From contig MFFQ01000023.1 in the NCBI GenBank assembly GCA_001780165.1, positions 5,215-69,214 of the forward strand: 64,000 nucleotides of DNA, read 5' to 3'. A model generated the notes under the pieces. That model saw only the letters and a list, made by a program, of their open reading frames with translations. It did not search any database and was not told the origin of the DNA. Shown here piece by piece: positions 30,617 through 46,268 of the stretch. The position numbers were made by a program, and so were the translations under genes. Origin of the DNA: Candidatus Eisenbacteria bacterium RBG_16_71_46 (lineage in GTDB: Bacteria; Eisenbacteria; RBG-16-71-46). How positions within the stretch are numbered: the first letter of the stretch is position 1; each line of letters opens with the position of its first letter.

Positions 30617-30639
30617 CCCTTCCGCAGTACCCGCGTGGA

Positions 30640-32544: not shown

Positions 32545-32764
32545 GGTGGAGCCTCCTACGCAGTGATGTGGTGCCATGGCAAACGGATGGATGCGCACGG
32601 ACGAAGGAACGGAAGCGTGCCGCGCGAGACACGGTGGCCGGAAGGGATTCTCGCTCTGGCTGCCAAGGTCATTTCCGGCTCCACCGCAACGGGTCCGCGC
32701 AGGGCGAATGCGTCGCGGCCGACGACTCCCTCATCCGGTCCTGCGAGCGGACCGGGGCGCTTCT

Positions 32765-32800
32765 TGTAAACGATTACAAACCTGTATGACGTTGTCAAGC
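32765..32800. promoter_or_regulatory. LacI-family operator copy B (TGTAAACGATTACA, 32765-32778) plus TTGTCAAGC box (32792-32800) in the divergent region between the CBM9-like operon and the GH1 gene
   Basis: Same bipartite architecture as copy A (spacing 13 vs 14 nt). Confidence 0.55.
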
Positions 32801-32835
32801 AGGGCCTTCCTCGCCCGCCGCCGGCGGCGTGTGGA

Positions 32836-32864
32836 CGCCCTTCCAGGGCTCCGCTATCCTGCGC
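32836..32864 (+). promoter_or_regulatory. Candidate sigma70 promoter for GH1 gene (TGGACG -17- TATCCT)
   Basis: Hexamers read directly about 40 nt upstream of the 32904 ATG. Confidence 0.2.
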
Positions 32865-32903
32865 CGCCTGCGATGGACACCCTAGGACGATCCCGCCCGC
32901 GCG

Positions 32904-34274: not shown

Positions 34275-34355
34275 GCCGGGGGCCGTGCGGGCGCGGTGCC
34301 CGCCGGGCCCGCGCGGCGGAGCCGTGCGGGGGCGCGCCGGTTCGCGCCGCGTGCT

Positions 34356-37300
34356 TCAGCGGCTGAGCACCACGGTCGCGGGCACGCGACGGACCACCAC
34401 CTCGCCTGCCGCCGTCAGCGGCACCGCCGTGCCGTCGATGGTGGCGCGGCGAAATCCCGCGGGGGGCGGACGCAGCACGATCCCGCCGCGCGGCACGCGC
34501 AGGCCGCCCGCGAGGCTCACTTCGAGCGCCGCGCCGTGCAGGCGCATGGTGTAGCTGAGGAGTCCGTACGGCGTCGGCAGGTCCCGCACCACGACGCCCG
34601 GCGCCCGCGACACCCACGCCAGCGGCACCCCGGCGCCCAGCACCAGCGTCTGCTCGTCCTCGCGCGCATAGGCCAGCATGTCGAGCACCGCGCGCACGAA
34701 ATCCGATCCGACCCAGGTGTGGGGCATGTCGCCGATGAACTTCGCGGCGCGCGCGTCCCGCCACACCACCTCGGCCCACTCGGCCCAGCCCGCCGGACGG
34801 CGGCAGGCCATGAAGAAGCGCAGCAGCTCCTGGGCGCGGTCCCGCCAGCCGAGATGAACGAACGCGCCGAGGTTGCGCAGTTCGTACGGGGTCAAGGCCT
34901 CCCAGCCGGCCTCGCCGTCGCGCCGCGCGCGGAAGAACTCCCAGTACTTCTCGAAGGTGCGCACCAGCGCCGCCCGGGGCAGCGCCCGGTCCGCCTCCAC
35001 CGGCGTGATCGCGATGGTGGTGGAGGTGGCGTCGAAGTCGCCCAGGTCGGCGGCCCCGGGGATGTAGTCGATGCCGTGCACTCGCATCGCGGCGCGGATC
35101 GAGGCGACCAGCTCGCCCTGGAACTGGTCGCGGATCGCGGCCAGGCGCGCGCGCTCGCGGCCCTGTCCCAGGACGCCCGCCAGGTAGGCGGCGTCCTTGA
35201 ATCCGCGCAGCGCGAAGAAGTCGTCCCAGTACGAGTGCATCGGCTTCGCCGAGTATCCCTCGTGGCTGATCGAGGGCGGCAGCAGGCCGAAGAAGACGGC
35301 ACGGCCGGGGGCGCGGTACTCGGCGGTGCGGCGCAGCCGGCGCAACGAATCGAGGTAGGCGGCGGCCCGCGCCACGTGCGGCCACATGCGCTCCACCAGG
35401 GCGCGATCCCCGGTGTAGCGGTAGTACTCGGCGACCAGGTAGATGAACTCGCCGCTGCTGTCGTGCTCCGGCACCGGGTCCGAGCCGCGCTCGTCGACGC
35501 AGCAGGGCACCTTGCCGTCGGCGTACTGGTAGGGCGCGAACCACTCGATGTACTCGCGCACCGTCTCCGGGTGCCCGAGCCGCAACAGGGCGGACGACGT
35601 GAGGGCCCCGTCGCGGATCCACGAACGGTCGTAGGCGCGCGAGCCGGGCTGGATCGCCGCACCGTCGCGGTTGATCAGGATGTAGGCGAGCTGCGCCTCC
35701 AGCGTGCGGACGACATCCGCCGCCGAGTCGGGCAGCATGATCGTCACCCGCCCCAGCCGCTCGCGCCAGCCCCGCCGGCAGACCGCGAGCCGCTCGGCCA
35801 CTTCGCGCCTCACGTCGGCCTCGGCGGCGGGACGCGGCGGCCCGGGCACGCCGTAGAGCGGAACCTGCAGGTCCACCTCGCGCTCCTCCCCCGGCGCCAG
35901 CTCGAGCCGGTAGGCCAGCGCTCCAGACGCATGCTCGAACGGATCGCGCACCCGCCGCCCCGGCGGCAGGCGGCCGGCGCGCAGGTACTCGACGACGTCA
36001 CCCTGGTCGAAGGTGGCGGCCCCGAAGCCGCTCGGGGCGGTCAGGCTGGCCACCCCGCGGTCGCCGTTGACGCGGACCACGCGCCCGGCCTGCTCCAGCT
36101 CGCGGATCGGCGCAGTTCCCCCCGGCGAGCCCAGGAACTGCGCCGGCGGGTTGACCTGGAACGGCCGCAGCGCCAGGAAGAGCGTGGCGCGCGTCGCGCG
36201 GTCGCCGCGATTGGCGACGCGGTAGCGAGCGAAAACGGACGAGGCGCCGGGCGCACCGGTGGCGATCGACGTGACCGACAATTCCATGGCTCCCGCGCGC
36301 CACCGCACCGTGGGGATCGGCCGCCCGCCGCCGTCGAGCGACTGCGCGATCTCGGCGTTCGCCCAGGTGACGAGACGGCCGCCCGTGAACAGGAACGGCT
36401 CGACCGAGAAGCCGCCCTGGCCGCTCTCGATCATCCCGTCCTCGTTGACCAGCGACTCGCGCTCGTCGCCGTCCACGCCCACGATCGTCCAGTACGACTG
36501 CTCGCCGAGGATCGCGCGCGGATAGCTTCCGCGCGGCGCGTCGCCGGCGATCGACCGGTAGAACGTCTCGAGCGAGGCCGACCAGGCCAGCGGCTCGACG
36601 ATGACCTCGCGCACCGCGACGCCCCCCGGCCCTGCCGCCTTCAGCACCCGCAGGCGCACGTGGCGCGTCTCGCTCTCGGGCAGGAACAGGGGGTCGCGGC
36701 CGCCGTTCCCCCCCCGCGCCTCGCGCACCGTCCGCCAGCGCGCACCGTCGGACGAGAACTCCACGTCGTAGTCGGTCGCCGCCCGGCCGGGGCCCCAGTC
36801 CACCACCAGCCCGCCGAACTCCCGCTCCCCACCCAGGTCGAGCGCCAGCCACGGCGCGCGGTCCCCGGGGGCCGCCACCCAGTCGGTCGCGGCATTCCCG
36901 TCCACCGCGCCGCCCGGGGCATGGCCGGACCGCGACGAGGAGGCGCGGGCGAGCGGCGCCCGCGCCACGGAGTCCGGCGGCGGCAGCGACTCCAGCTCGA
37001 GCTGGTCGAGCCACACCGATCCGGCACCCCCGCCGCCGGCGGTGACGGCGAACTCGATGGCCGCCACGTGCCGGATCTCGCCACCGCCCGCCGGTCCCCA
37101 GGCGAACGAGATGTGGCGCTGGCGGAGCGTCACGGAATCCCAGGAGGCGGAAAAGCGGACGTTGCGCCGATTGGACCACCACACGTTCGCGCCGGTCGAG
37201 TCGATGAGCTTGAACTCGAGGTTGTTGGGCGGGCAGTTGCCGCGGATGCGGAAGCGGAAGCGGTAGTGGTCGGGCAGGTCGAGCGCGAGGTCCTTGTGGA

Positions 37301-37535
37301 CCACCGCGTAGCCCCCGCCCTTGACGAAGCGGACATCGAGCCGCATCGCCCGGCCGACCAGCCCGGAATCCGGGTGGATCGCGAGCTCGACGCCATCGCT
37401 GGGGCGCGCCGACCACCCGTCGAGGCTCTCGAAGCCGTCCACCAGCAGGGCGCCGCGCGGCCCCGCGGCGGCGGCGATCCCGAGCGTGGAGGGCGTCAGC
37501 CCGAGAACCAGGAGCACGGCGCATCGGTTCCGCAT
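34356..37535 (-). CDS. Secreted glycoside hydrolase: N-terminal F5/8-type-C (discoidin/CBM32-like) domains plus C-terminal glucoamylase-like (alpha/alpha)6 domain
   Basis: Signal peptide; ...DGNAATDWVAAPGDRAPWLALDLG... discoidin signature; ...AYDRSWIRDGA... (GH15-like WxRD); 1059 aa. Confidence 0.65.
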   Translation of the reverse strand: MRNRCAVLLVLGLTPSTLGIAAAAGPRGALLVDGFESLDGWSARPSDGVELAIHPDSGLVGRAMRLDVRFVKGGGYAVVHKDLALDLPDHYRFRFRIRGNCPPNNLEFKLIDSTGANVWWSNRRNVRFSASWDSVTLRQRHISFAWGPAGGGEIRHVAAIEFAVTAGGGGAGSVWLDQLELESLPPPDSVARAPLARASSSRSGHAPGGAVDGNAATDWVAAPGDRAPWLALDLGGEREFGGLVVDWGPGRAATDYDVEFSSDGARWRTVREARGGNGGRDPLFLPESETRHVRLRVLKAAGPGGVAVREVIVEPLAWSASLETFYRSIAGDAPRGSYPRAILGEQSYWTIVGVDGDERESLVNEDGMIESGQGGFSVEPFLFTGGRLVTWANAEIAQSLDGGGRPIPTVRWRAGAMELSVTSIATGAPGASSVFARYRVANRGDRATRATLFLALRPFQVNPPAQFLGSPGGTAPIRELEQAGRVVRVNGDRGVASLTAPSGFGAATFDQGDVVEYLRAGRLPPGRRVRDPFEHASGALAYRLELAPGEEREVDLQVPLYGVPGPPRPAAEADVRREVAERLAVCRRGWRERLGRVTIMLPDSAADVVRTLEAQLAYILINRDGAAIQPGSRAYDRSWIRDGALTSSALLRLGHPETVREYIEWFAPYQYADGKVPCCVDERGSDPVPEHDSSGEFIYLVAEYYRYTGDRALVERMWPHVARAAAYLDSLRRLRRTAEYRAPGRAVFFGLLPPSISHEGYSAKPMHSYWDDFFALRGFKDAAYLAGVLGQGRERARLAAIRDQFQGELVASIRAAMRVHGIDYIPGAADLGDFDATSTTIAITPVEADRALPRAALVRTFEKYWEFFRARRDGEAGWEALTPYELRNLGAFVHLGWRDRAQELLRFFMACRRPAGWAEWAEVVWRDARAAKFIGDMPHTWVGSDFVRAVLDMLAYAREDEQTLVLGAGVPLAWVSRAPGVVVRDLPTPYGLLSYTMRLHGAALEVSLAGGLRVPRGGIVLRPPPAGFRRATIDGTAVPLTAAGEVVVRRVPATVVLSR

Positions 37536-37541
37536 CGCGAC

Positions 37542-38363
37542 TCAGCCCTTGATGCTGCCCATCATGACGCCGCGGATGTAAGAGCGCTGCAGGAAGAGGA
37601 AGACCAGCAGGGCGGGCAGCACCGTGAGCACCGAGCCCGCCATCATGAGCTCCGTGTCCTGGACGTGTTCGCCCACCAGATTGGCGAGCGCCACCGGGAG
37701 CGTGTACTTGGCATCGTCGCTCAGCACGATGAGCGGCCACATGAAGTCGTTCCACGAGCTGAGGAAGCTGAACACCGCGAGCGTGACGAGAATGGGTCGG
37801 ATGATCGGCAGCACGATGGTCCGGAAGATCCGGAACTCCCCGGCGCCGTCGATGCGCGCGGCGTCGAGCAGGTCGTCCGGAATGCTGAGCGCGTACTGGC
37901 GGATGAGGAAGATGCCGAAGATGCTCGCCATCCCGGGCACGATCACCCCCATCATCGTGTTCACCAGCCCTAAGCCCTTGAGCATCAGGAACAACGGCAG
38001 CATGCCCACCTGGGCCGGGATCACGAGCCCGGCGAGCAGCCCGCGGAACACCCGCTCGCGCCCGGGAAAACGCAGCTTGGCGAAGGCGTAGCCGGCCATC
38101 GAGTTCACCAGCAGCGAGATGAGCGTCGTGGCGACGGCGATCACGGCGCTGTTGAGCAGGTGCCGGTACAGGGCCAGTCGCGTGAACAGCTCGACGTAGT
38201 GTCCCGCGGTCGGGGCGCGCGGCAGGAGCTGGGGCGGGTAGCTGTTCGCCGAGCCGGCGGGCATGAACGAGGCCGACACCATCCACAGCAGCGGCGTGAG
38301 AGTGAGCAGCGCGCCGAGCAGGACGAGCGCGTGCAGCGCCACCACCCGGATCGGTCGCCTCAT
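37542..38363 (-). CDS. Carbohydrate ABC transporter permease (second TMD)
   Basis: EAA-loop region ...ARIDGAGEFRIFRTIVLP...; ATGA overlap with upstream permease. Confidence 0.85.
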   Translation of the reverse strand: MRRPIRVVALHALVLLGALLTLTPLLWMVSASFMPAGSANSYPPQLLPRAPTAGHYVELFTRLALYRHLLNSAVIAVATTLISLLVNSMAGYAFAKLRFPGRERVFRGLLAGLVIPAQVGMLPLFLMLKGLGLVNTMMGVIVPGMASIFGIFLIRQYALSIPDDLLDAARIDGAGEFRIFRTIVLPIIRPILVTLAVFSFLSSWNDFMWPLIVLSDDAKYTLPVALANLVGEHVQDTELMMAGSVLTVLPALLVFLFLQRSYIRGVMMGSIKG

Positions 38364-39253
38364 GTGCCGTGGCCCCGTTGCAGTCGAAGCTGCAGCATCG
38401 TCCCCAGCAGCATGATCACGAACAGCACGAAGGCGATGGCCGCCGCCATCCCCATGCGCCACCAGCGGAAGCCCTCCTCGTACATGAGGAGCACGACGCT
38501 GGTCGTGCTCTTCAGCGGACCGCCCTGGGTCATGACGTACGGCTCGGAGAAGAGCTGGAACTGGCCGATCATGGTGAGCACGCCGACGAACAGGAAGGTC
38601 GGGGCCAGGCTCGGCATCGTGATGTGCACGAAGCGCGACCAGGCGCCGGCGCCGTCGAGGTGGGCGGCCTCGTACAAGTCGTCGGGAACGCTCTGCAGCC
38701 CGGCGATGAAGATGAGCATGTTGTAGCCGAAGTTCTTCCACACCGAGAGCAGGATGATCGCCGGCATCGCCCAGTGCGGGTCGCCGAGCCAGTCGATGGG
38801 CCGGATGCCGAACGCGCCGAGCGCGTAGTCGAGCAGTCCGTAGCGCGGGTGATAGAGGTAGCGCCAGACGATCGCCACCGCCACCAGCGTCGTCACCACC
38901 GGGGCGAAGAGCACGGTGCGGAACAGCCCCTTGGCGCGCAGCAGCCGCGCGTTCAGCAGCAGGGCGGCCGCCAGCGAGGCGATCACCGAAAGCGGTCCGC
39001 CGACCAGCACGAAGTAGAAGGTGTTGCCGAGCGCCTTCCAGAAGACCGGGTTGGAGAGCACCTCGGCGAAGTTGCGCAGGCCGACGAACCGCGCGGTCTC
39101 CGGGGCGCCGATGGCGTAGATGTCGAAATCCGTGAGGCTGAGCAGCAGGCCGGCCACTACCGGCACCGCGAAGAACGCGCCGATGAGCCCGAGCGCCGGG
39201 GCCAGGAACAGCCACGCCGCCCGGGTCTGCCGGCGCGCCGGGGCGCGGCTCAC
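38360..39253 (-). CDS. Carbohydrate ABC transporter permease (first TMD)
   Basis: ...AAHLDGAGAWSRFVHITMP... EAA loop; GTG start overlapping the SBP stop (GTGA). Confidence 0.8.
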   Translation of the reverse strand: MSRAPARRQTRAAWLFLAPALGLIGAFFAVPVVAGLLLSLTDFDIYAIGAPETARFVGLRNFAEVLSNPVFWKALGNTFYFVLVGGPLSVIASLAAALLLNARLLRAKGLFRTVLFAPVVTTLVAVAIVWRYLYHPRYGLLDYALGAFGIRPIDWLGDPHWAMPAIILLSVWKNFGYNMLIFIAGLQSVPDDLYEAAHLDGAGAWSRFVHITMPSLAPTFLFVGVLTMIGQFQLFSEPYVMTQGGPLKSTTSVVLLMYEEGFRWWRMGMAAAIAFVLFVIMLLGTMLQLRLQRGHGT

Positions 39254-40554
39254 CGGCCCTCCCGTGCGGCACGAACACCCCCGCCGCGCGAGCGCTCGAG
39301 CAGCCAGCGTCGCTTCTCGAGGATCCGTCCCACGTCGCGGTCGAGGCGCGCGAGCGCCGAGTCGGGCGGCACGCCGCCGCGGATCGCGCCTTCGGTGGAG
39401 TCGAGCAGCCGGTTGGCGATCAGCTCCCATTCCGGGATCTTCGGCGTGGATACGACGCGCTGGAGTTGTTCCCAGAAGGCGCGGGTGGTCGCGTCGCGCG
39501 CCAGCGAGGAATCCTGCCAGGCCTCGCGCCGCGCGGGGAGGTCCCCGGTGAGGCGGTAGAAGCGCACCTGCTGCTCGGGCCGCGACAGGAACTCGATCAG
39601 CTTCCAGGCCTCGGCCTGGTGGCGCGAGGCGCGGAACAGCACCAGGCTCGAGCCACCCGCCAGCGACAGCCCCGAGCCCGGGCCGTCCGGTCCGGGCAAG
39701 GGTGCCGTGTCCCATGCGTTCTGCATCTCCGGCGGCAGCCGCCGCCGGAACTCGCCCAGGTTCCACGGGCCGCTGATGTACATGGAGAAGTAGCCGCGCG
39801 CGAATTCCTGGTAGAGGTTGGCGACCTCGTTGTTCCCCACCGCCGGCGCCAGCCCGCTGCGGAACAGATCCAGGTAGAAGAGGAACGCGCGCCGAAACGG
39901 GGCGGCGCTGAAGGCGCCGCGCGTGTCGTGGTCGGCGAGCAGCGGGGAGCCCGACTGCAGGCCGAAGATGATCGGCTGGGTGAACTCGTTCGCCGGCAGG
40001 AAGATGGCGAAGCGATCCGCGCCCACCAGGCGTTTGACCGCCTCCATCGAACGCCGCCATTCACTCCAGCTCCCGGGCATGCTCGGGTATCCCGCGCGGG
40101 CCAGGATGTCCTTGCGGTAGAACAGCACCCGCGTGTCCACGTACCACGGCACGCCATAGGTCGCTCCCTCGATGACGTTGGTCTCCCAGATGCCCCGGAA
40201 GTATCCGGCGGAGTCCACGCCCGTCCCGGAGGCGAGCCGGTCGTCGATCGGCTCGATCGCGCGCAGCGCGGCGAATTCGGCGATCCAGGTGTTGCCGAGC
40301 TGGCAGACGTCGGGGGTGGCGTTGCCGACGTAGGCGGTCAGCAGCTTCTCGTGCGCCGCGGACCACGGGATCTGCTGCACCTGCACCCGCAGCGTCGGGT
40401 TTTCGCGCTCGAAATCGCGGACCAGCTCCTGCACCACCTCGCCCTCCCGCCCCATCGCCCAGAAGCGCAGCGTGGTGCGCGGGCCATCCGCGCGCGGACC
40501 GCATCCCGCGGCGAGTGCCATGGCGGCGAGCAGTCCGAGGGCCGGCGCCTTCAT
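39250..40554 (-). CDS. Sugar ABC transporter substrate-binding lipoprotein (family 1)
   Basis: Lipoprotein signal MKAPALGLLAAMALAAGC; start ATG overlaps stop of upstream GH144-like gene (ATGA); the six-frame ORF extends spuriously upstream. Confidence 0.8.
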   Translation of the reverse strand: MKAPALGLLAAMALAAGCGPRADGPRTTLRFWAMGREGEVVQELVRDFERENPTLRVQVQQIPWSAAHEKLLTAYVGNATPDVCQLGNTWIAEFAALRAIEPIDDRLASGTGVDSAGYFRGIWETNVIEGATYGVPWYVDTRVLFYRKDILARAGYPSMPGSWSEWRRSMEAVKRLVGADRFAIFLPANEFTQPIIFGLQSGSPLLADHDTRGAFSAAPFRRAFLFYLDLFRSGLAPAVGNNEVANLYQEFARGYFSMYISGPWNLGEFRRRLPPEMQNAWDTAPLPGPDGPGSGLSLAGGSSLVLFRASRHQAEAWKLIEFLSRPEQQVRFYRLTGDLPARREAWQDSSLARDATTRAFWEQLQRVVSTPKIPEWELIANRLLDSTEGAIRGGVPPDSALARLDRDVGRILEKRRWLLERSRGGGVRAAREGR

Positions 40555-42056
40555 CGCCCGGCCGCGATCGAATCCAGCCATCCGCCGGCGAAACCCGCGC
40601 GCCGCAGGCCGCGCACGACGTGGGCGTTGCCCCGCATGTACCGCCACACCAGCCCGCTGCGGGCGTTCTCGGCCATCGCCAGGATCGGGCCCTGATCGAT
40701 GCCTAGGTAGTCGGTGTCGAACCAGCCGGCGGAGGGATCCACCCGTCCATGGTGGACCGGGACGTTGCGGGTGAGCGTGGGGTTGAACGCGTCCAGGAAG
40801 CCGTAGGTCGAGAAGATGCGGTCGCCGTAGGCCTCGCGGATCGCGATCAGCGTGCGGATCGTGGGCCCGGGGGCGAAGGGGATGGACCCGCCCGCGGCCG
40901 TCGGGGCGATGGTGCCGTCGTCCTCCACGGTGGTGAACGACGCGCCACGCGCGGCATAGGTGCGGAAGGCACGCTCGCGCCCGCCGATCGTCACCGTGCC
41001 GTCCAGCGGCCCGTCGCATGCGGTGAGCCCCCACAAGCGCTCGCCGTATCCGGCGAACCCGCCGGGATTCTCCACCGCGTAGGCCCGCTGGGAGAGGGTG
41101 GCGCGTCGCGAATTCTCGAAATAGTCGATGCCGCGCGCCCGCATGGTGGAGTCCCGCACGCCGCGCAGGTCGAGCCACACCTGGGTGTACTGGTGGCCGA
41201 AGAGCGGCGCGAATCCGACCTGTGGGTAGCCGTGAAAGGTGCCCCAGCGGTAGCCGCTGGTCCATGCGTCCCAGGTGTCCGCGCCGACCGGGTGGCTCGG
41301 CGATCCAAGTGCCAGGACGTGGAGCAACATCGCCTCGTTGTATCCGCGCCAGTCGTAGGGCAGGAAGCCCTCCTCCGGCGTCCAGCCCAGCACGATGGTC
41401 GGGGGCCGCGGCTGGGCCCAGCGCCAGTCCACGCGCGCGTAGAGCGAATCCGCGAGCGCGCGGATGGTGTCCTCCACGGCGTCGGACCGTTCGAAGTAGG
41501 ACTGGCAGAAGAGCACTCCGGCCATGAGCAGCGCCGTGTCCATGGTGGAGAGCTCCACGCGCTCCCAGCGCACACCGCGGTCGGGGTCGAGGAAGTGGTA
41601 GAAGAAGCCGTGATGGCCGATGCAGCCTGCGGCGTCCGCTCCCTGCCGCGCCTGCCACAGGAAGCGCAGGGTGGCGAGAACCCGTTCGCGCGCCTGGGCG
41701 CGCGTGATCCAGCCCCGCTCGGCGCCGATCGGGTAGGCGGTGAGCGCGAACCCCATGGCGCCGACGCTCGCGAACGACCGCGTGGGGGCGCGATCCGGCG
41801 TGAGGCCGGTGCGCGCATCGCTCAGATCCCAGAAATAGCCGAAGGTGCGCCGCTCGAGCGTGTCGAGGAAGGCCGTCTCGCGGGCCGTGAGCGCCAGCGA
41901 ATCCGCGGCAAGGGAGGTGGCACCACCCGCCGCGCGCGGCGCGGAGTGCGACGGTCCCCGAACGCAGCCCGACAGCGCCAGCAGCAGCAGCAGCAGCAGT
42001 GCCGCCGCCGCGGGCTCGCCGCGGATCAGGTGCCGCCGGTCGGCCCGGACGCGCAC
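40551..42056 (-). CDS. DUF3131 / GH144-like (alpha/alpha)6 glycoside hydrolase paralogue, lipoprotein, no T9SS CTD
   Basis: Lipobox LALSGC; shares GFFYHFLD, GYNEAMLLHVLALGSP, IDYFENSRRATLSQRAY, GIDQGPI blocks with 21915-23486. Confidence 0.7.
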   Translation of the reverse strand: MRVRADRRHLIRGEPAAAALLLLLLLALSGCVRGPSHSAPRAAGGATSLAADSLALTARETAFLDTLERRTFGYFWDLSDARTGLTPDRAPTRSFASVGAMGFALTAYPIGAERGWITRAQARERVLATLRFLWQARQGADAAGCIGHHGFFYHFLDPDRGVRWERVELSTMDTALLMAGVLFCQSYFERSDAVEDTIRALADSLYARVDWRWAQPRPPTIVLGWTPEEGFLPYDWRGYNEAMLLHVLALGSPSHPVGADTWDAWTSGYRWGTFHGYPQVGFAPLFGHQYTQVWLDLRGVRDSTMRARGIDYFENSRRATLSQRAYAVENPGGFAGYGERLWGLTACDGPLDGTVTIGGRERAFRTYAARGASFTTVEDDGTIAPTAAGGSIPFAPGPTIRTLIAIREAYGDRIFSTYGFLDAFNPTLTRNVPVHHGRVDPSAGWFDTDYLGIDQGPILAMAENARSGLVWRYMRGNAHVVRGLRRAGFAGGWLDSIAAGR

Positions 42057-42062
42057 GCCGCC

Positions 42063-43106
42063 TCAGCCGCCCTGGGTACGGCCGCCGCGTCCTCGCGCCC
42101 CGTCCGCCATCGGGGATCCGCAGGACCTCCGGACCACCAGGGTGGTGGGCAGGATCTCGCATGGGCGGCTGCCGCCCTGGGGCGACCCCTGCCTGGCGAG
42201 CAGGTGATGCACCGCCCGCTCGCCGAGCCGGAACGCGTCCACGTGGACGGTGGTCAGCGGCGGGGTGAGATGGCGCGCGAGCGCGATGTCGTCGAATCCG
42301 GTCACCGCGATGTCCTCCGGCACGCGCACGCCGGCCTCGCCGAGCGCGCCGAGGAGGCCCACCGCCATGGAGTCGTTGGCGGCGAACACCGCCGTGGGCC
42401 GCCGCGCGAGCGCGAGCAGGCGCGCCCCGGCATCGTGTCCCGAGCGCTCCGAGAAGTCGCCGGGGATCTCCAGCTCCGGGTCCGGCGCGACGCCGGCGTC
42501 TCGCAGCGCGGCGCGATAGCCCTCCAGGCGTTGCTGCGCGTCGCTGTTGCGTGGCGGACCGGTGATCACGGCGATCCGGCGGTGCCCGAGGCCGAGCAGG
42601 TGGCGGATCATCACGGCGGCCCCGTCGAGATTGGCGATGCAGATCGCGTCGAGGTCGTCCCCGGTGGCGGCGGGATCGATGAGCACCAGCGGAGTGTGCG
42701 CGGCACCCGCGCGGATCGCGGCCGGGGCGTCCGCGTCGGGCGCCATGACGATGAGACCGTCGATCCGCCCGCGCATCGCCCGCAGCGCCGACAGCAGGTC
42801 GCGGGTGTCGGAGTGCGAGCTGGAGACCAGCAGGTGGAGGTTCTCCTTCCGCGCGGCGAGGTCGATGCCGCGGATGATCTCGGAGAAGAACTCGCCGTGA
42901 AGATCGGGCAGCAGGACGCCGACCGCGTGCGTACGGTTGGTGATGAGGCTGCGGGCGACGCCGTTCGGCCAGTAATTGAGGCGCGTCGCGACCTCGCGCA
43001 CCTGCCGGCGGGTCTGCGAGCTCACCGCGGCGCTCTCGTTGAAGACTCGGGAGACCGTGGCGATGGATACCCCGGCGTCGCGGGCCACGTCTTTGATCGT
43101 CGCCAT
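42063..43106 (-). CDS. LacI-family transcriptional repressor
   Basis: N-terminal HTH MATIKDVARDAGVSIATVSRVFN; periplasmic-binding-fold C-domain; start could be 43118. Confidence 0.85.
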   Translation of the reverse strand: MATIKDVARDAGVSIATVSRVFNESAAVSSQTRRQVREVATRLNYWPNGVARSLITNRTHAVGVLLPDLHGEFFSEIIRGIDLAARKENLHLLVSSSHSDTRDLLSALRAMRGRIDGLIVMAPDADAPAAIRAGAAHTPLVLIDPAATGDDLDAICIANLDGAAVMIRHLLGLGHRRIAVITGPPRNSDAQQRLEGYRAALRDAGVAPDPELEIPGDFSERSGHDAGARLLALARRPTAVFAANDSMAVGLLGALGEAGVRVPEDIAVTGFDDIALARHLTPPLTTVHVDAFRLGERAVHHLLARQGSPQGGSRPCEILPTTLVVRRSCGSPMADGARGRGGRTQGG

Positions 43107-43194
43107 GGTCGGATCCACTGGGGAGGATCGGGGAACGGCCGGAGCGTATACCCCGGCGGGCGCGCACAGGCGCCGAATCCTCTAGCGAGGCAAA

Positions 43195-43222
43195 TGTAAA
43201 CGATTACGGTCGCTCTTGACAA
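43195..43222. promoter_or_regulatory. LacI-family operator copy C (TGTAAACGATTACG, 43195-43208) plus inverted TTGACAA box (43216-43222), ~90 nt upstream of the LacI gene (autoregulation)
   Basis: Third copy of the motif; box orientation inverted and spacing 7 nt. Confidence 0.5.
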
Positions 43223-43289
43223 TGCGGGCGGGCAGCCACCCCCGGGCCCACCCCGCCGACCCGTCGCCGCGCCGGCGCCGGCCCGGGCC

Positions 43290-44069
43290 TCAGCCGGAGG
43301 CCTCGAGGTTCAGCCAACCCAGGCGCTGGCAGCAGAGGACGTACTTGGAGCATCGCGTCCGCCGCGGCGTGAGCGGATGGAGGATCTGCCGGACGAGATC
43401 CACGTCGATGCTCGCCGCCTTGACCTCGATCACCACCAGCCCCTCCAGCGCGGATGGAACCCCCCGCCGCGGGCTCGCGCAACCGGTCTGGTCGTAGCCG
43501 ACGATGTCGTAGTCGAGGGTGGCGCGGACCCCCGTCGACCGGTCGCTGAAGTGCTGGCGCCGGTAGGAGACCAGGACCACCGGCTGGTCGCGCCCGCAAA
43601 GATGGGACGCCTGGCTCTCGGAGAGCCGGCTGCCGATCTGCCGCAGCAGGTCCGGGTAGGGGCGCGCGGCCAGCGGACCCTGGGCGGAGATCAAGACGCG
43701 CTCCTTCCACGAGACCTGGTTGCGGCGGGACTTGAGCTCGAAAAAGAGCCGGTCGTCCGGCAACGGCCGGTCGTACCAGCGCAGGCGCACCTTGGACCGG
43801 CGCCCGATCCCCGAGATGGACTCGTGGCACGCGGACAGGCTGGCGTCGTCGAAGTAGATGCTGTTGACCTGCGAGACCGGGGTGCGGCCGAACGTCTCGC
43901 GCCGGGCGTTGGCGCCGAGGATGGCGCTGATCTTCCCCACGTCCGCCCCCGGGAGGGCGAACTTGATCTCGCACCGCCCGGGGCCGCGGGTGGAGTCGGC
44001 CTCCCGCGACCGGGCGCCCGCCGGCTCGCCCACGGCGGCGACACCGGGAGCCGGGACGCCCGCGCTCAC
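43290..44069 (-). CDS. VTC-domain protein (triphosphate-tunnel-metalloenzyme fold, polyphosphate-polymerase-like)
   Basis: ExK-type start of tunnel (CEIKFAL), basic tunnel residues; GTG start chosen to form GTGA overlap with upstream stop; ATG at 44105 also possible. Confidence 0.6.
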   Translation of the reverse strand: MSAGVPAPGVAAVGEPAGARSREADSTRGPGRCEIKFALPGADVGKISAILGANARRETFGRTPVSQVNSIYFDDASLSACHESISGIGRRSKVRLRWYDRPLPDDRLFFELKSRRNQVSWKERVLISAQGPLAARPYPDLLRQIGSRLSESQASHLCGRDQPVVLVSYRRQHFSDRSTGVRATLDYDIVGYDQTGCASPRRGVPSALEGLVVIEVKAASIDVDLVRQILHPLTPRRTRCSKYVLCCQRLGWLNLEASG

Positions 44070-44755
44070 AGCAGGCTCTTGAGGTTGACGTAGGAGATCT
44101 GGCACATGGGCAGGCGCGCTTGCAGCCCGGCCACCATCGCGCCGACCGCATCGGGGCTCTCGGGAAAGACCGCGATGCGATAGCGCACCTGGCCGTCCTC
44201 GACGTCGAGCCGCTGCACGTCATGGCGGCCGACGAGCTCCGCGACCGAGCGGGAGAAGCGGGTGAGATCTCCCCCGAAGATCTCCGGCTGCGCTCCCGAG
44301 ATGGTCAGCAGCAGTTGCTGGGCGCCCGCCCGGCCGCGCAGGTGGTGGCCGAGGACGACGAACAGCGAGAAGACCACCATGCCGGCCAGCGCGAGCGGAA
44401 TGAACCGCGCGCCCAGGGCGATGCCGATGGAGATGCAGAAGAAGAGATAGACGATTTCCTCGGGCTCCTTGATCGCCGCCCGGAAGCGCACGATCGAGAG
44501 CGCGCCGACCAGCCCCAGGGACAGGGCCAGCGACGACTTGATCACCGAGATGACCAGGATGGTGGCGACGGTCAGCAGCGGAAAGGTGCTGCTGAAGGAA
44601 TCCCGGTTCGACAGGGTGGTGGCGAAGCGCCGGTAGAGCACCCGGACCCAGTAGCCGATGACGCCGCCCGCGAGCATCGACCCGATCAGATAGACCGCTT
44701 CCCGTAAGGCGCCGCCCTGAGGCAGGCCCACCAGCAGATCACGCAGTTGTTGCAA
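44066..44755 (-). CDS. DUF4956-like polytopic membrane protein, partner of VTC-domain proteins
   Basis: Four or more TM segments, conserved ...LSIVRFRAAIKEPEE...; start uncertain (TTG after AAGGCGGA, or upstream ATG 44848). Confidence 0.55.
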   Translation of the reverse strand: MQQLRDLLVGLPQGGALREAVYLIGSMLAGGVIGYWVRVLYRRFATTLSNRDSFSSTFPLLTVATILVISVIKSSLALSLGLVGALSIVRFRAAIKEPEEIVYLFFCISIGIALGARFIPLALAGMVVFSLFVVLGHHLRGRAGAQQLLLTISGAQPEIFGGDLTRFSRSVAELVGRHDVQRLDVEDGQVRYRIAVFPESPDAVGAMVAGLQARLPMCQISYVNLKSLL

Positions 44756-44896
44756 CCCATCCGCCTTTCGTCCGTTCCGCCCGGGCCGCGGCCCGCGTGA
44801 TCCTGGGGCTGCCGGGAGCCCCGCCCGCGGTCCCCCCCCCGTCGTCACGCGGCCCCCGCCCCACGGACGTCGGGCCGGGGCGACGTCCGGGGAGGA

Positions 44897-46138
44897 TCAT
44901 CCTCCGCGGGTCAGCCATTCCGCCTTCCGCTGCACGATGAACCGGCGCACCCGGTCGACGGCCCCGTCGAACCTCGCCAGGTCCGCCTGGGTGCGCGGAT
45001 CGGCGCGGGTCGTCGAGTGGAGCGTGCGCCCCACCCGGTCGATCCGCTCCATCAGGGCCCGCTCGTCCCACGCCTCGCGGAGCACGCGCTGGATCGCCCG
45101 CTCGTACGCCCCGGCGAGCGCGGGCGCCTCGCGCACGTCCTCCGCGAGCCGGCCCTTGGGCGGCGCGAACGGGCTGCGCACTTCGATGTCGGGGTAGACG
45201 CCGTCCACACCGAACAACGAGTCCATGCCGTGGGGGATGAAGACGAAGCGCCCGTCGCTCGAGCGGTCGTACATGAAGTAGTTGTTGACGTTGCCGGAGT
45301 AGCTGTCCCAGTGGTTCGCCAGGGCGTCGATGGCGCACCCGGTGAGGAAGCCGTCGAGATCGAGGCGCTCGCGCACCGCCCTCACCCACTCGGCTTCGGG
45401 CGTCTCGCGGACGACCTTGACCAGGGCGCGGAGATCGTCGCGGTTGCGGCGCTCCTCCCCCTGGCGCTTCAGCTCCATGCGCTGGGGTTGCTCGAGGAAA
45501 TCGGTGCACGGATCGTCGAATGGACACGACCCCTCGTAGAGATTGCCGCCCGCGTCCGCGACACCGAAATTCCTGACCAGGAACTGCCGGTCGACGGCTT
45601 CCTTGATGACGTAGACGCCGCGTGGCTCACCGTTGAAGGTCACCACCGCGTGCGCCGTCAAGGGGGCGGGCAGATGCGCGCGGCGGTAGAGCTCGTAGCC
45701 GAGGTGCTCGTTGAGGAAGGCGACATCCTGCCGGGCATTGTTGAGGATCAGCTTGTCGATGCCGAACAGGCGCTGGTGCTTGATGAACGCGTTGAGCTTG
45801 ATGCTGAAGGCCGGTTTCTCGGAGAGCGGCGAGAGCGAGTTGATGCCGCCCTTGCGGCGGATCCCCACCATCACGTAGGCGTGGCCGTCGAAGCTGAAGG
45901 TGCAGGGGACGCGCCGCGACCAGTCCCGGTCCAGCGTGGCGAGATCCTTCTCCTCGACCGTGATCGCGATCTCGTGGAGGACCCTGGTGTCGAAGACGGT
46001 CGCGACCGCCGGCGGCGATCCGGGAGACCAGACCGTGGCCCGAGCGTCCGGCCCCGCCGATCCGCCCGGCCACCCAATGCCGCCGAGAACAGCGGCCAGC
46101 AGGAGCAGCTTCGCGTCCGCGCGCCACGCGCATCGCAT
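44897..46138 (-). CDS. CotH-family protein kinase-like protein, secreted
   Basis: Signal-like N-terminus; CotH fold blocks (...NNYFMYD..., ...DLDGFLTGCAIDALANHWD...); GGGAGG upstream of chosen ATG. Confidence 0.7.
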   Translation of the reverse strand: MRCAWRADAKLLLLAAVLGGIGWPGGSAGPDARATVWSPGSPPAVATVFDTRVLHEIAITVEEKDLATLDRDWSRRVPCTFSFDGHAYVMVGIRRKGGINSLSPLSEKPAFSIKLNAFIKHQRLFGIDKLILNNARQDVAFLNEHLGYELYRRAHLPAPLTAHAVVTFNGEPRGVYVIKEAVDRQFLVRNFGVADAGGNLYEGSCPFDDPCTDFLEQPQRMELKRQGEERRNRDDLRALVKVVRETPEAEWVRAVRERLDLDGFLTGCAIDALANHWDSYSGNVNNYFMYDRSSDGRFVFIPHGMDSLFGVDGVYPDIEVRSPFAPPKGRLAEDVREAPALAGAYERAIQRVLREAWDERALMERIDRVGRTLHSTTRADPRTQADLARFDGAVDRVRRFIVQRKAEWLTRGG

Positions 46139-46268
46139 GGGTTTTCGTGCCTCCCGCATGAGTGGCCGGTGGCCGCGGGGCGTCGCCGCCCCGCCCCGGG
46201 AGCCGGCGCCCGCGCCGCCCTCCGGGAGCCCGGCGCCCGCGGGGCGGGCTACGACCGCCGCCGCGCGC

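What the first reader, a model, noticed from the sequence alone, without database searches (positions are those of the whole stretch)
43290..46138. VTC-domain / DUF4956 membrane protein / CotH kinase trio: candidate bacterial polyphosphate-polymerase-plus-channel module with a secreted kinase
Seen: three co-directional genes. VTC and DUF4956 are joined by a GTGA overlap; CotH is 49 nt upstream. Established: the VTC domain is the catalytic polyphosphate-polymerase (triphosphate-tunnel) core of eukaryotic Vtc4, which works with a membrane channel. CotH proteins are atypical protein kinases. Inference: the soluble VTC enzyme plus polytopic DUF4956 partner could be a split prokaryotic analogue of the VTC complex, synthesising and translocating polyP or another phospho-polymer, with CotH acting on the product or an envelope substrate. 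The function of this recurrent trio is, to my knowledge, not experimentally defined.
Basis: partly seen in the sequence, partly recalled or inferred. Interest (0 to 1): 0.55.

Follow-up and report, generated by a model that had tools for sequence, protein, structure and literature searches.

The report
Bacterial VTC–DUF4956–CotH gene trio
Three neighbouring genes in an uncultured bacterium encode a relative of the yeast polyphosphate-making enzyme, its membrane partner and an exported kinase-like protein; the cluster type was already noted in the literature, its function is still untested, and it may supply phosphate chemistry outside the cell membrane.

Summary
On the minus strand lie CotH (44897-46138), DUF4956 (44066-44755) and VTC (43290-44069, GTGA overlap), all well above Pfam cut-offs. 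The source is Candidatus Eisenbacteria RBG_16_71_46.

The VTC protein keeps every Vtc4 tunnel and catalytic residue, and its model matches Vtc4/3/2 best. One systematic difference is an invariant Glu (R-x-E-x-K) where Vtc4 has Thr.

DUF4956 is not related to the eukaryotic VTC channel. It is a distant MgtC-like protein with five TM helices (N-out, C-in) and a cytoplasmic ACT-like domain.

VTC and DUF4956 are an obligate pair: adjacent in 78 of 80 species, and naturally fused in several lineages. CotH is a frequent but optional third part (32 of 46 fully flanked loci). It is nearly always signal-peptide-bearing, and in six loci an exported PPDK_N protein takes its place.

The trio was already described next to Gram-positive Pel operons, with ambiguous genetics. 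Here it stands alone.

Best reading, with low-to-moderate confidence: a membrane-coupled polyphosphate or phosphoryl supply module for exported phosphotransferases. No channel function is shown. The window's CotH lacks one canonical Asp by alignment. It is a new member of a known but uncharacterised cluster type, and moderately interesting.

The parts
44897..46138 (-). CotH-family kinase-like gene (413 aa from the ATG at 46138; the longest ORF starts at the ATG at 46159)
   Evidence: Pfam PF08757 E=6.7e-40. Matches B. cereus CotH 5JD9 at E=1.1e-10. Called as 413 aa on sister contigs.
46040..46138 (-). Predicted Sec-type signal peptide of CotH (MRCAWRADAKLLLLAAVLGGIGWPGGSAG...); the 3' limit is approximate
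   Evidence: Heuristic: a basic n-region followed by an 11-residue uncharged hydrophobic stretch with mean Kyte-Doolittle 2.77. No dedicated signal-peptide predictor was available.
45185..45316 (-). CotH active-site region CAIDALANHWDSYSGNVNNYFMYDRSSDGRFVFIPHGMDSLFGV. The catalytic Asp (HWD) is present. The second canonical Asp position is Gly, with an Asp two residues later. Coordinates are read off the sequence ruler.
   Evidence: Alignment with B. cereus CotH and 56 survey CotHs. The B. subtilis D228Q and D251A mutants are inactive.
44756..44896 (-). CotH-DUF4956 intergenic spacer (141 nt with the TTG start; 48 nt if the GTG at 44848 is used)
44066..44755 (-). DUF4956 membrane protein gene (229 aa, TTG start), 100% identical to a GenBank protein of Candidatus Eisenbacteria RBG_16_71_46
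44339..44713 (-). DUF4956 membrane domain (residues 15-139). It has five helices and an N-out, C-in topology. The invariant motif LSLGxxGALSIVRFRAAIKxPE ends in a cytoplasmic loop.
   Evidence: AF2 model with pLDDT 84. Positive-inside count is 6.7 versus 2.0 K+R. Invariant columns. A sub-threshold full-length MgtC PF02308 match occurs in 46 of 49 members.
44069..44314 (-). DUF4956 C-terminal beta-alpha-beta-beta-alpha-beta (ACT/ferredoxin-like) cytoplasmic domain (residues 148-229)
   Evidence: AF2 secondary structure. Foldseek hits include ACT domain 3IBW and the MgtC C-terminal domain 2LQJ.
43290..44069 (-). VTC-domain (triphosphate tunnel) protein gene (259 aa). Its GTG start overlaps the DUF4956 stop (GTGA).
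   Evidence: P0001, 259 aa, 99% identical.
43977..44069 (-). Disordered N-terminal 31 residues of the VTC protein. This region corresponds to the linker in natural DUF4956-VTC fusions, and its length differs in a sister strain.
   Evidence: pLDDT below 50 for residues 1-25. Fusion alignment. The sister contig calls a 286-aa gene.
43320..43976 (-). VTC tunnel domain (residues 32-250) with R32, E34, K36, R95, R97, E111, K113, Y169, R171, R182, E215, K217, S241 and K242
   Evidence: Profile-to-Vtc4 alignment. Invariance is 46 of 46 for all but S241, which is 45 of 46, and holds in distant members. AF2 pLDDT is 90, and the top 13 Foldseek hits are Vtc4/3/2.
43193..43222 (-). Boundary feature, not part of the module: a sigma-70-like promoter match next to the near-palindrome GTAATCGTTTAC, upstream of the lacI-family gene. 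It suggests the trio is a separate unit from the downstream glycan-utilisation genes.
   Evidence: 2 sites found against 0.2 expected.

Best explanation
The trio is a membrane-coupled phosphate-polymer or phosphoryl supply module for the cell envelope.

Proposed mechanism. The VTC protein is an active triphosphate-tunnel enzyme. It docks on the cytoplasmic face of the DUF4956 protein, next to that protein's ACT-like domain and the invariant basic loop RFRAAIKEPE. In some lineages the two are covalently tethered. The VTC enzyme most likely polymerises phosphate from a nucleoside triphosphate, as Vtc4 does. The DUF4956 partner, probably as an oligomer, anchors and regulates the enzyme through its ACT-like domain and passes the product across the inner membrane. 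There an exported enzyme of phosphotransfer fold (CotH here, a PPDK_N protein in other species) uses the product or acts together with it on envelope or matrix substrates.

Shown by tool results: the three families; conservation of the catalytic residues; the obligate pairing and natural fusion of VTC with DUF4956; the topology; and export signals on the third component.

Inferred: polyphosphate as the product, translocation across the membrane, and any use of the product by CotH.

My confidence in the sub-claims differs: VTC and DUF4956 act as one unit, about 0.9; VTC is catalytically active on a triphosphate substrate, about 0.8; the product is polyP, about 0.5; polyP is exported, about 0.3; CotH uses it, about 0.2.
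For: - The VTC family profile hits Vtc4 at E=2.9e-10. The residues aligned with Vtc4 K200, R264, R266, K281, Y359, R361, R373, E426, S457 and K458 are invariant in 46 close relatives, except S457 (45 of 46), and conserved in 58 distant ones.
- Vtc4 R264A/R266A/E426N is an inactive mutant, and K458 is described as the catalytic lysine.
- The AF2 model (pLDDT 90) matches Vtc4/3/2 tunnels at E of 3e-11 to 8e-9, ahead of the hydrolytic TTMs.
- K217 replaces the Glu found at the corresponding position in hydrolases, as K428 does in Vtc4.
- DUF4956 lies directly upstream of VTC on the same strand in 76 of 80 species, and within 1.5 kb in 78 of 80.
- All three unrelated DUF4956 proteins sampled had a VTC gene nearby.
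- Natural DUF4956-VTC fusions keep all tunnel residues, and one is encoded identically in three independent samples.
- DUF4956 has an N-out, C-in topology, so its ACT-like domain and basic loop face the cytoplasm where VTC sits.
- The third component is exported: 55 of 60 CotH ORFs and 6 of 6 PPDK_N proteins have signal-like N-termini, against 5 of 84 VTC controls. Several carry cell-surface domains such as PA14, LTD, PKD and EF-hand.
- Two different exported phosphotransfer folds occupy the same slot. Such enzymes face a phosphoryl-donor problem outside the cytoplasm. That last point is inference from general knowledge.
Against: - No assay exists for any bacterial VTC protein in the searchable literature.
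- DUF4956 shows no sequence or fold relation to the VTC channel.
- Its nearest family, MgtC, is characterised as acting on other proteins (it inhibits the F1Fo ATP synthase and targets PhoR) rather than as a transporter.
- The bacterial family has an invariant Glu (E34) at the position of the second Glu of the hydrolase motif ExExK. Vtc4 lacks it, and it could support hydrolysis through a second metal site.
- CotH is absent from 14 of 46 fully flanked loci.
- The window's CotH has Gly where B. subtilis D251 aligns.
- In S. intermedius the VTC deletion had no reported phenotype. The DUF4956 and CotH deletions changed Pel levels in opposite directions.
- The 80-locus survey was seeded with a single peptide pattern, so it samples one subfamily.
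Confidence: 0.35

Rival explanations
1. A membrane-anchored, ligand-regulated cytoplasmic polyphosphate synthase with no export. DUF4956 only tethers the VTC enzyme to the membrane and regulates it. Its ACT-like domain would play the sensing role that the SPX domain plays in eukaryotic VTC. PolyP stays in the cytoplasm, and CotH is only a loosely linked neighbour.
For: - DUF4956 is MgtC-like with an ACT-like domain.
- MgtC acts on other proteins (F1Fo ATP synthase, PhoR) rather than transporting.
- The pair occurs without CotH in 14 of 46 loci, and the fusion P0241 stands alone.
- The tunnel residues are fully Vtc4-like.
Against: - In 37 of the 46 fully flanked loci, CotH lies within 4 kb (32 loci) or an exported PPDK_N protein directly follows VTC (5 loci). 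In the window-like arrangement the junctions have 4-nt overlaps.
- An invariant basic loop and an extremely conserved membrane motif suggest more than an anchor.
Confidence: 0.3
2. The VTC-domain protein is not a polymerase. It would be a triphosphate-tunnel hydrolase or cyclase, for example a tripolyphosphatase, NTPase or nucleotide cyclase. Its activity would be controlled by, or signal through, the MgtC-like membrane protein. The module would then be a sensing or signalling device.
For: - The bacterial family invariantly keeps a Glu (R-x-E-x-K) at the position of the second Glu of the CYTH ExExK motif. Vtc4 has Thr there.
- Acidic-patch glutamates build the second, water-activating metal site in hydrolytic TTMs.
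- AtTTM3 shares the tunnel core with Vtc4 yet is a tripolyphosphatase and not a polymerase.
- The VTC deletion has no aggregation phenotype in S. intermedius.
Against: - Only one of the four acidic-patch positions is acidic. R32 and K217 are basic, as in Vtc4.
- By fold and by profile the closest relatives are Vtc4/3/2, ahead of YgiF and other hydrolases.
- The catalytic lysine equivalent K242 is invariant.
Confidence: 0.15
3. A dedicated accessory set of exopolysaccharide biosynthesis, as in the Gram-positive Pel loci. The three proteins would tune production or modification of a secreted glycan, for example by phosphorylation. The synthase would be encoded elsewhere in this genome.
For: - cotH, a 'polyphosphate polymerase' gene and DUF4956 are contiguous with pelDEADAFG in streptococci, clostridia and bifidobacteria.
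- The trio lies near a GT2 'chitin synthase' in C. perfringens NELoc-2.
- Deleting the DUF4956 or CotH homologue alters Pel level and aggregation.
- The cyanobacterial locus L094 has a GT2 gene nearby.
- Here the trio sits next to a LacI-controlled glycan-utilisation locus.
Against: - No Pel or synthase gene lies within about 6 kb of the trio, and none appeared among the 64-kb window ORFs I scanned, which was a partial scan.
- No glycosyltransferase or Pel cluster recurs within 7 kb in the 80 surveyed loci.
- The neighbouring glycan genes have their own promoter-like site and are catabolic.
Confidence: 0.15

Closest known systems
Eukaryotic VTC complex (yeast Vtc4/Vtc3/Vtc1 polyphosphate polymerase-translocase; PDB 3G3Q, 7YTJ, 8I6V)
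   Same: - The same tunnel fold and the same catalytic and tunnel residues.
- The enzyme is coupled to a membrane protein, covalently in some lineages, just as the Vtc4 tunnel is fused to its membrane domain.
- A cytoplasmic basic surface lies next to the membrane, analogous to the basic belt described for VTC.
   Different: - The membrane partner is unrelated. It is an MgtC-like 5-TM protein, not the 3-TM PF02656 domain.
- There is no SPX domain. An ACT-like domain sits on the partner instead.
- An invariant extra Glu (R-x-E-x-K against R-x-T-x-K in Vtc4) is present.
- An exported kinase-like third component has no equivalent among the VTC subunits (Vtc1-Vtc5) described in the papers read.
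- No activity has been shown.
Pel-locus accessory genes of Gram-positive bacteria (S. intermedius SIR_1592 DUF4956/MgtC-ACT, SIR_1593 VTC, SIR_1594 secreted CotH-FN3; the cotH/PPP/DUF4956/DUF4832 set of Whitfield et al.)
   Same: The same three families are adjacent, CotH is secreted, and DUF4956 shows the same MgtC-like plus ACT architecture.
   Different: - Here there is no pel operon and no DUF4832 among the Pfam-annotated neighbours.
- The host is a Gram-negative-type phylum.
- The S. intermedius authors reported finding the trio only at Pel loci. In my survey it is Pel-independent in the loci surveyed, which span Planctomycetota, Acidobacteriota, Verrucomicrobiota and other phyla.
MgtC/SapB/YhiD family (PF02308; M. 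tuberculosis MgtC C-terminal domain 2LQJ)
   Same: - A hydrophobic N-terminal domain with about five helices, followed by a small ACT-like cytoplasmic C-domain.
- A weak, full-length profile match in 46 of 49 DUF4956 members.
   Different: - Scores fall below the Pfam gathering cut-off (14 bits against 31.4 for the window protein).
- The membrane motif is distinct and invariant.
- The obligate pairing with a VTC enzyme was not mentioned for MgtC in the one paper I read that discusses it.
Bacillus CotH spore-coat Ser/Thr kinase (PDB 5JD9), distantly related to Fam20C secretory kinases
   Same: Pfam CotH domain at E=6.7e-40, a match to 5JD9 at E=1.1e-10, and the catalytic Asp conserved.
   Different: - The window's protein is exported through a signal peptide rather than acting in the mother cell.
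- The position of the second essential Asp is Gly, with an Asp two residues later. This is a subfamily trait, P(W/H)GxD.
- The substrate is unknown.
Hydrolytic triphosphate tunnel metalloenzymes (CYTH: E. coli YgiF, AtTTM3, ThTPase)
   Same: The same tunnel fold (YgiF at E=6e-8). One glutamate of the ExExK acidic patch is retained.
   Different: The other acidic-patch positions are basic, as in Vtc4, and these enzymes rank below all the Vtc proteins.

Membership tests
VTC-type polyphosphate polymerase (Vtc4-like TTM) | Closed eight-stranded beta-tunnel fold closest to the Vtc tunnel domains | tested here: met
   AF2 pLDDT is 89.9 and pTM 0.86. The top 13 Foldseek PDB hits are Vtc4/Vtc3/Vtc2, at E of 3e-11 to 8e-9. 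Pfam PF09359 scores 85 bits against a cut-off of 23.
VTC-type polyphosphate polymerase (Vtc4-like TTM) | Tunnel and catalytic residues K200, R264, R266, K281, Y359, R361, R373, E426, S457 and K458 (Vtc4 numbering) | tested here: met
   They align with K36, R95, R97, K113, Y169, R171, R182, E215, S241 and K242. All are invariant in 46 of 46 relatives, except S241 in 45 of 46. In 59 sequences at 21-32% identity they are invariant or at least 90% conserved.
VTC-type polyphosphate polymerase (Vtc4-like TTM) | Absence of the acidic patch (second metal site) that marks hydrolytic TTMs | tested here: inconclusive
   R32 and K217 are basic, as in Vtc4. E34 is an invariant Glu where Vtc4 has T198. No structure-based superposition was possible because model coordinates are not exposed.
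VTC-type polyphosphate polymerase (Vtc4-like TTM) | Synthesis of polyP from ATP | not testable with these tools
   This needs an enzyme assay. No published assay of a bacterial VTC protein was found.
Eukaryotic VTC complex (polymerase plus channel) | Membrane channel built from PF02656 (DUF202) three-helix domains of Vtc1/3/4 | tested here: not met
   No PF02656 hit at E<=1 among the families listed for the 49 DUF4956 members. No Vtc chain appears at E<=10 with the DUF4956 profile or among the 50 listed Foldseek hits.
Eukaryotic VTC complex (polymerase plus channel) | SPX domain sensing inositol pyrophosphates | tested here: not met
   Only PF09359 was found on the VTC protein, and only PF16316 on its partner. 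The partner carries an ACT-like domain instead.
Eukaryotic VTC complex (polymerase plus channel) | Physical coupling of the tunnel enzyme to a membrane domain | tested here: met
   Natural DUF4956-VTC fusions P0241, P0242, P0243, P0281, P0283 and P0360 exist. The two genes are adjacent in 78 of 80 loci. In the window itself the two are separate proteins, so contact between them is inferred.
Eukaryotic VTC complex (polymerase plus channel) | Translocation of the polymer through the membrane partner | not testable with these tools
   No multimer modelling or assay was available.
MgtC/SapB/YhiD family (PF02308) | Profile match above the curated cut-off | tested here: not met
   The window protein scores 14.2 bits against a cut-off of 31.4. 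A sub-threshold match spanning profile positions 4-118 of 121 occurs in 46 of 49 members, with a best E of 1.6e-5.
MgtC/SapB/YhiD family (PF02308) | Polytopic N-terminal domain plus a small ACT-like cytoplasmic C-terminal domain | tested here: met
   The AF2 model has five helices followed by a beta-alpha-beta-beta-alpha-beta domain. The MgtC C-domain 2LQJ and ACT domain 3IBW are among the Foldseek hits. Topology is N-out, C-in.
CotH protein kinases (PF08757) | CotH domain above the curated cut-off and similarity to the solved CotH structure | tested here: met
   138 bits against a cut-off of 23.8. Match to 5JD9 at E=1.1e-10 over residues 117-405.
CotH protein kinases (PF08757) | Catalytic Asp (B. 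subtilis D228) | tested here: met
   It aligns with the Asp of HWD in the window. That column is Asp in at least 90% of the survey CotHs. The equivalence of Bs D228 with Bc D224 is inferred from the identical 23-residue spacing.
CotH protein kinases (PF08757) | Second essential Asp (B. subtilis D251) | tested here: inconclusive
   By alignment the window has Gly there (IPHGMDSLF), with a conserved Asp two residues later. The same P(W/H)GxD motif defines a subfamily of about a dozen survey CotHs. No structure was available to tell whether the shifted Asp substitutes.
Pel-associated cotH/PPP/DUF4956(/DUF4832) accessory cluster | The three families adjacent and co-directional | tested here: met
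Pel-associated cotH/PPP/DUF4956(/DUF4832) accessory cluster | Contiguity with pelDEADAFG, and presence of DUF4832 | tested here: not met
   The neighbours are citrate synthase, PEPCK, a POT permease, LacI, a glycoamylase and ABC sugar permeases. The other large window ORFs I scanned show no Pel or GT2 synthase. No such cluster recurs in the 80 loci.
Known anti-phage defence systems (PADLOC) | Match to any defence-system protein model | tested here: not met
   No hits for any of the three proteins at E<=0.01.

The most novel reading that the evidence does not exclude
Bacteria possess a VTC-type polyphosphate polymerase. It is tethered or fused to an MgtC-like membrane protein that is unrelated to the eukaryotic VTC channel and threads polyP across the cytoplasmic membrane. 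Exported CotH-type enzymes, or alternatively PPDK_N-type enzymes, use this polyP as their phosphoryl donor. This would be an ATP-independent supply line for phosphorylation in the periplasm or on the cell surface. It would also explain how the many secreted bacterial CotH proteins can work where there is no ATP.
Probability: 0.2. Interest if true: 0.85.

Novelty: new member of a known kind. Interest (0 to 1): 0.5.

Why it matters
Polyphosphate synthesis is taught as PPK in prokaryotes and VTC in eukaryotes. Yet a VTC-type tunnel enzyme with a complete catalytic residue set is widespread in bacteria (6,626 representative clusters at E<=1e-10). It is almost always wired to one particular membrane protein. 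If it makes polyP, that adds a second bacterial route to polyP, one located at the membrane. If the product crosses the membrane, it would explain the origin of extracellular or periplasmic polyP. It would also give exported CotH kinases a phosphoryl donor, which is an open problem for secreted bacterial kinases. It bears too on the biology of MgtC-like proteins, whose molecular activity is poorly defined, and on the unexplained accessory genes of Pel biofilm loci in streptococci and clostridia. Finally, the work identifies ready experimental handles: natural single-chain fusions and a cultured carrier, Stieleria marina K23_9.

Tried and rejected
- A single-sequence search of the VTC protein against the PDB gave only E=0.09 to Vtc4. 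A family profile was needed.
- NCBIfam has no model for any of the three proteins.
- Homology of DUF4956 to the VTC channel is rejected.
- An anti-phage defence system is rejected.
- Pel or exopolysaccharide-synthase adjacency in this genome and in the survey is rejected.
- Other recurrent neighbours (Ser/Thr kinases, ECF sigma factors, sulfatases, DUF1501; present in at most 18 of 80 loci) belong to families I know to be generally expanded in Planctomycetota. I treated them as background. That judgement rests on my own knowledge, not on a test.
- The original CotH structure paper (Nguyen et al. 2016) is not held. The CotH residue equivalences are therefore inferred from residue spacing and from a later paper.
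- Model coordinates are not exposed, so I could not check side-chain orientation in the tunnel or look for a pore.
- Multimer prediction of VTC with DUF4956 was not possible with the tools.

Full report
**1. Observation**

The minus strand of the window carries three co-directional ORFs:
- CotH, 44897-46159. The likely start is the ATG at 46138, giving 413 aa.
- DUF4956, 44066-44848 as the longest ORF.
- VTC, 43290-44105 as the longest ORF.

Pfam assigns all three well above the curated cut-offs: CotH E=6.7e-40, DUF4956 E=4.1e-15, VTC E=8.6e-24. NCBIfam has no model for any of them. The DUF4956 stop and a VTC GTG start overlap as GTGA at 44069-44066. Independent gene calls on a sister contig show the same 4-nt overlap.

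The DUF4956 protein is 100% identical to a GenBank protein of Candidatus Eisenbacteria bacterium RBG_16_71_46, annotated as 229 aa. That corresponds to a TTG start at 44755. The extra 31 residues of the longest ORF are not shared by homologues.

The neighbours are citrate synthase, PEPCK and a POT permease upstream. Downstream lie a LacI regulator, a PF10091 glycoamylase and ABC sugar permeases. A promoter-like site and a near-palindrome sit between VTC and lacI. This suggests the trio is a unit of its own.

**2. The VTC protein**

Alone, the protein barely finds Vtc4 (E=0.09). A profile of 46 relatives finds Vtc4 at E=2.9e-10 and Vtc2 at E=2e-7. Reading that alignment with the numbering of chain 8I6V_E gives these equivalences (window = Vtc4):

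| Window | Vtc4 |
|---|---|
| R32 | R196 |
| E34 | T198 |
| K36 | K200 |
| R95 | R264 |
| R97 | R266 |
| E111 | E279 |
| K113 | K281 |
| Y169 | Y359 |
| R171 | R361 |
| R182 | R373 |
| E215 | E426 |
| K217 | K428 |
| S241 | S457 |
| K242 | K458 |

All of these are invariant in the 46 relatives, except S241, which is Ser in 45 of 46. They remain invariant or at least 90% conserved in 59 sequences that are only 21-32% identical to the window protein. Vtc4 R264A/R266A/E426N is the published inactive mutant, and K458 is described as the catalytic lysine.

The AlphaFold model (pLDDT 89.9) has Vtc4, Vtc3 and Vtc2 as its 13 best PDB matches (E of 3e-11 to 8e-9). These rank ahead of the hydrolase YgiF (6e-8) and other CYTH enzymes.

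There is one systematic difference. The bacterial family reads R-x-E-x-K on the first strand, Vtc4 reads R-x-T-x-K, and hydrolytic tunnel enzymes read E-x-E-x-K. In the hydrolases these glutamates belong to the acidic patch that binds the second, water-activating metal, which Vtc4 lacks. The bacterial proteins keep one of those glutamates. Their other patch positions are basic, as in Vtc4. Polymerase chemistry is therefore likely but not assured. No paper in the searchable library reports an assay of a bacterial VTC protein. A 2025 review still treats VTC as the eukaryote-type enzyme. The family is large, with 12,624 representative clusters at E<=1e-3 and 6,626 at E<=1e-10.

**3. The DUF4956 protein**

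The family has an almost invariant membrane motif, LSLGxxGALSIVRFRAAIKxPE. The AlphaFold model (pLDDT 84) shows five membrane helices followed by a beta-alpha-beta-beta-alpha-beta domain.

Only that C-terminal domain finds solved structures. The hits are ACT and ferredoxin-like folds, including the MgtC C-terminal domain 2LQJ. No VTC channel subunit appears among the listed hits. The family profile finds no Vtc chain in the PDB even at E<=10. No member hits PF02656, the Vtc membrane domain. By contrast, 46 of 49 members give a sub-threshold but full-length match to MgtC PF02308, with a best E of 1.6e-5.

Positive-inside counting (6.7 versus 2.0 K+R) gives an N-out, C-in topology. The basic RFRAAIKEPE loop and the ACT-like domain then face the cytoplasm. 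Relatives with an N-terminal DUF1080 lectin-like domain fit this topology.

DUF4956 is therefore a distant MgtC-like protein and not a homologue of the eukaryotic channel. A channel role is possible only by analogy.

**4. Linkage**

I fetched 80 loci from different species by scanning reference genomes with a VTC peptide pattern. They span Planctomycetota, Acidobacteriota, Verrucomicrobiota, deltaproteobacterial MAGs, Hydrogenedentota and Nitrospirales, and include one cultured strain, Stieleria marina K23_9. I scored them with local HMMs.
- DUF4956 lies within 1.5 kb of VTC in 78 of 80 loci, and directly upstream on the same strand in 76. One of the two exceptions is cut by a contig end.
- CotH lies within 4 kb in 53 of 80 loci. 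Among the 46 loci with at least 4 kb on both sides, 32 have it.
- The usual order is DUF4956-VTC-CotH. The window's order, CotH-DUF4956-VTC, occurs in a minority of loci and in L090/L091, where both junctions overlap by 4 nt.

The link is reciprocal. All three diverse DUF4956 proteins I sampled had a VTC gene nearby.

A concatenated DUF4956+VTC query retrieved natural single-chain fusions: P0241, P0242, P0243, P0281 and P0283, and a further one, P0360. They have a variable linker and keep all tunnel residues. P0242 is encoded identically on contigs from three independent samples, so the fusions are not assembly artefacts.

The window VTC has a disordered N-terminal segment of about 30 residues, which corresponds to this linker. 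VTC and DUF4956 are therefore one functional unit. The survey was seeded with a single pattern, so it samples one subfamily. The distant fusions and the literature on Firmicutes extend the picture.

**5. The third component**

By a simple n-region plus h-region heuristic, CotH ORFs in the survey have signal-peptide-like N-termini in 55 of 60 cases, against 5 of 84 for the VTC controls. Several carry cell-surface domains: PA14, CHB_HEX_C, Fn3_assoc, LTD, PKD and EF-hand.

In six CotH-less loci, including S. marina, the ORF 26-122 nt after VTC is a 655-790-aa signal-peptide protein. Its representative has a PPDK_N ATP-grasp domain and an EF-hand. So 37 of the 46 fully flanked loci have an exported enzyme of phosphotransfer fold: CotH within 4 kb, or PPDK_N directly after VTC.

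The window's CotH keeps the catalytic Asp, which aligns with B. cereus D224 and is inferred to equal B. subtilis D228. It has Gly at the position of the second essential Asp (Bc D247, inferred to equal Bs D251), with a conserved Asp two residues later. About a dozen survey CotHs share this P(W/H)GxD motif. Whether this subfamily is an active kinase cannot be decided here.

**6. What is already known**

The trio is not new as a gene cluster. Whitfield et al. listed cotH, a 'polyphosphate polymerase' gene, DUF4956 and DUF4832 as accessory genes contiguous with pelDEADAFG in streptococci and clostridia; in bifidobacteria a DGC/PDE gene replaces DUF4832. C. perfringens NELoc-2 has VTC genes, membrane proteins annotated 'tubulin/FtsZ' and CotH near a GT2 synthase.

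A 2025 mBio paper describes S. intermedius SIR_1592 (MgtC-like plus ACT), SIR_1593 (VTC) and SIR_1594 (secreted CotH-FN3). Deleting SIR_1592 or SIR_1594 halves aggregation in artificial sputum medium and shifts Pel levels in opposite directions. Deleting SIR_1593 gave no reported phenotype. The authors state that they could not find the trio outside Pel loci.

Here, and in the 80 surveyed loci, no Pel or glycosyltransferase cluster recurs next to the trio. So the module is not intrinsically a Pel accessory. None of the three proteins matches a defence-system model.

**7. Interpretation**

The best-supported reading is a membrane-coupled tunnel enzyme that works as one unit with an MgtC-like membrane protein. 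It most likely makes polyphosphate at the cytoplasmic face. It is functionally tied to an exported phosphotransfer enzyme, which would need a phosphoryl donor outside the cytoplasm. Export of the polymer through DUF4956 would supply that donor.

The steps that are shown: family membership, residue conservation, pairing and fusion, topology, and export signals. The steps that are inferred: the product, its translocation, and its use by CotH.

I give the complete model 0.35. Three rivals remain live:
- a regulated cytoplasmic polyP synthase with no export (0.3);
- a non-polymerase tunnel enzyme in a signalling module (0.15);
- a dedicated exopolysaccharide accessory set (0.15).

**8. Verdict**

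The instance is a new member of a gene-cluster type that is already noted but uncharacterised.

New elements from this analysis:
- complete conservation of the Vtc4 residue set, plus the hallmark extra Glu;
- the MgtC-like, non-Vtc nature and the topology of the partner;
- natural fusions of DUF4956 with VTC;
- Pel-independence in Gram-negative phyla;
- substitution of CotH by an exported PPDK_N protein.

Interest is moderate (0.5). It would be high if polyP export to exported kinases were demonstrated.

Noticed in passing
L034 10695-12929, L063 2166-4535, L066 10719-12707 (Stieleria marina K23_9), L072 5759-7771, L077 10710-12752, L078 5101-7065: In six loci without CotH, the gene directly after VTC encodes a signal-peptide protein of 655-790 aa. 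The scanned representative (L034) has an EF-hand and a PPDK_N (ATP-grasp phosphotransfer) domain. An exported PPDK_N protein is unusual in itself.
   Followed up: partly
P0241 (L085 8001-9524), P0242 (L087-L089), P0243, P0281 (L086 8001-9392), P0283, P0360: Natural single-chain DUF4956-VTC fusions of 463-523 aa, with a variable linker between the ACT-like domain and the tunnel. P0242 is identical in three independent samples and sits next to a 965-aa PA14/CHB_HEX_C/Fn3_assoc/CotH/LTD protein.
   Followed up: yes
L020 10996-13767, L030 10468-13440, L031 10584-12935, L058 10679-13420 and other planctomycete CotH genes: Many CotH partners have long Gly/Pro-rich low-complexity stretches (GGPGGFGGPGG...) directly after the active-site motif PHDMNEAF.
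   Followed up: no
L021 9563-10330, L043 8813-9520, L045 13006-13602, L048 13615-14430, L049 5869-6987, L052 12700-13497, L068 11796-12578; also L086 6230-7966: Small secreted proteins with EF-hand-like DxDxDG repeats recur downstream of CotH in seven loci, and an EF-hand is fused to CotH in L086. Calcium-binding modules therefore accompany the exported partners repeatedly.
   Followed up: no
L004/L007, L012, L023, L032, L035, L039, L047, L062; L087 9579-10265: Loci of Acidobacteriota and Marinacidobacterales carry two or three DUF4956 paralogues, often with one convergent right after VTC. This hints at hetero-oligomeric membrane partners.
   Followed up: no
L090 6001-7341 and about a dozen proteins (e.g. 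P0322, P0333, P0338-P0342): A DUF4956 subfamily carries an N-terminal DUF1080 (PF06439, 3-keto-disaccharide hydrolase, lectin-like) domain. In L090 it lies between CotH and VTC, with 4-nt overlaps at both junctions.
   Followed up: partly
window 43977-44069 versus L001 7411-7552: The VTC gene on a sister contig of the same species is called as 286 aa, against 259 aa in the window. The difference lies in the disordered Ala/Gly/Pro-rich N-terminal segment.
   Followed up: partly
window 43160-43230: A near-palindrome, GTAATCGTTTAC, resembling a LacI-type operator, sits next to a sigma-70-like promoter match upstream of the lacI-family gene (42063-43118).
   Followed up: no
window 27879-43118: A probable LacI-controlled glycan-utilisation locus lies next to the trio. 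It comprises a TonB-dependent receptor (27879-30542), an F5/8 type C domain protein (34356-37535), ABC sugar permeases and a binding protein (about 37.5-40.5 kb) and a PF10091 glycoamylase (40551-42056).
   Followed up: partly
L094 847-7626 (cyanobacterial MAG): A variant locus with the order DUF4956, a 738-aa protein without any Pfam hit, VTC, a 648-aa Metallophos phosphoesterase and a GT2 glycosyltransferase.
   Followed up: no
window 24574-27882, 30640-32598, 32556-34232, 58110-61034 (all minus strand): Four long ORFs (558-1102 aa) have no Pfam hit at E<=1e-5. In this 70% GC sequence some may be shadow ORFs rather than genes.
   Followed up: no
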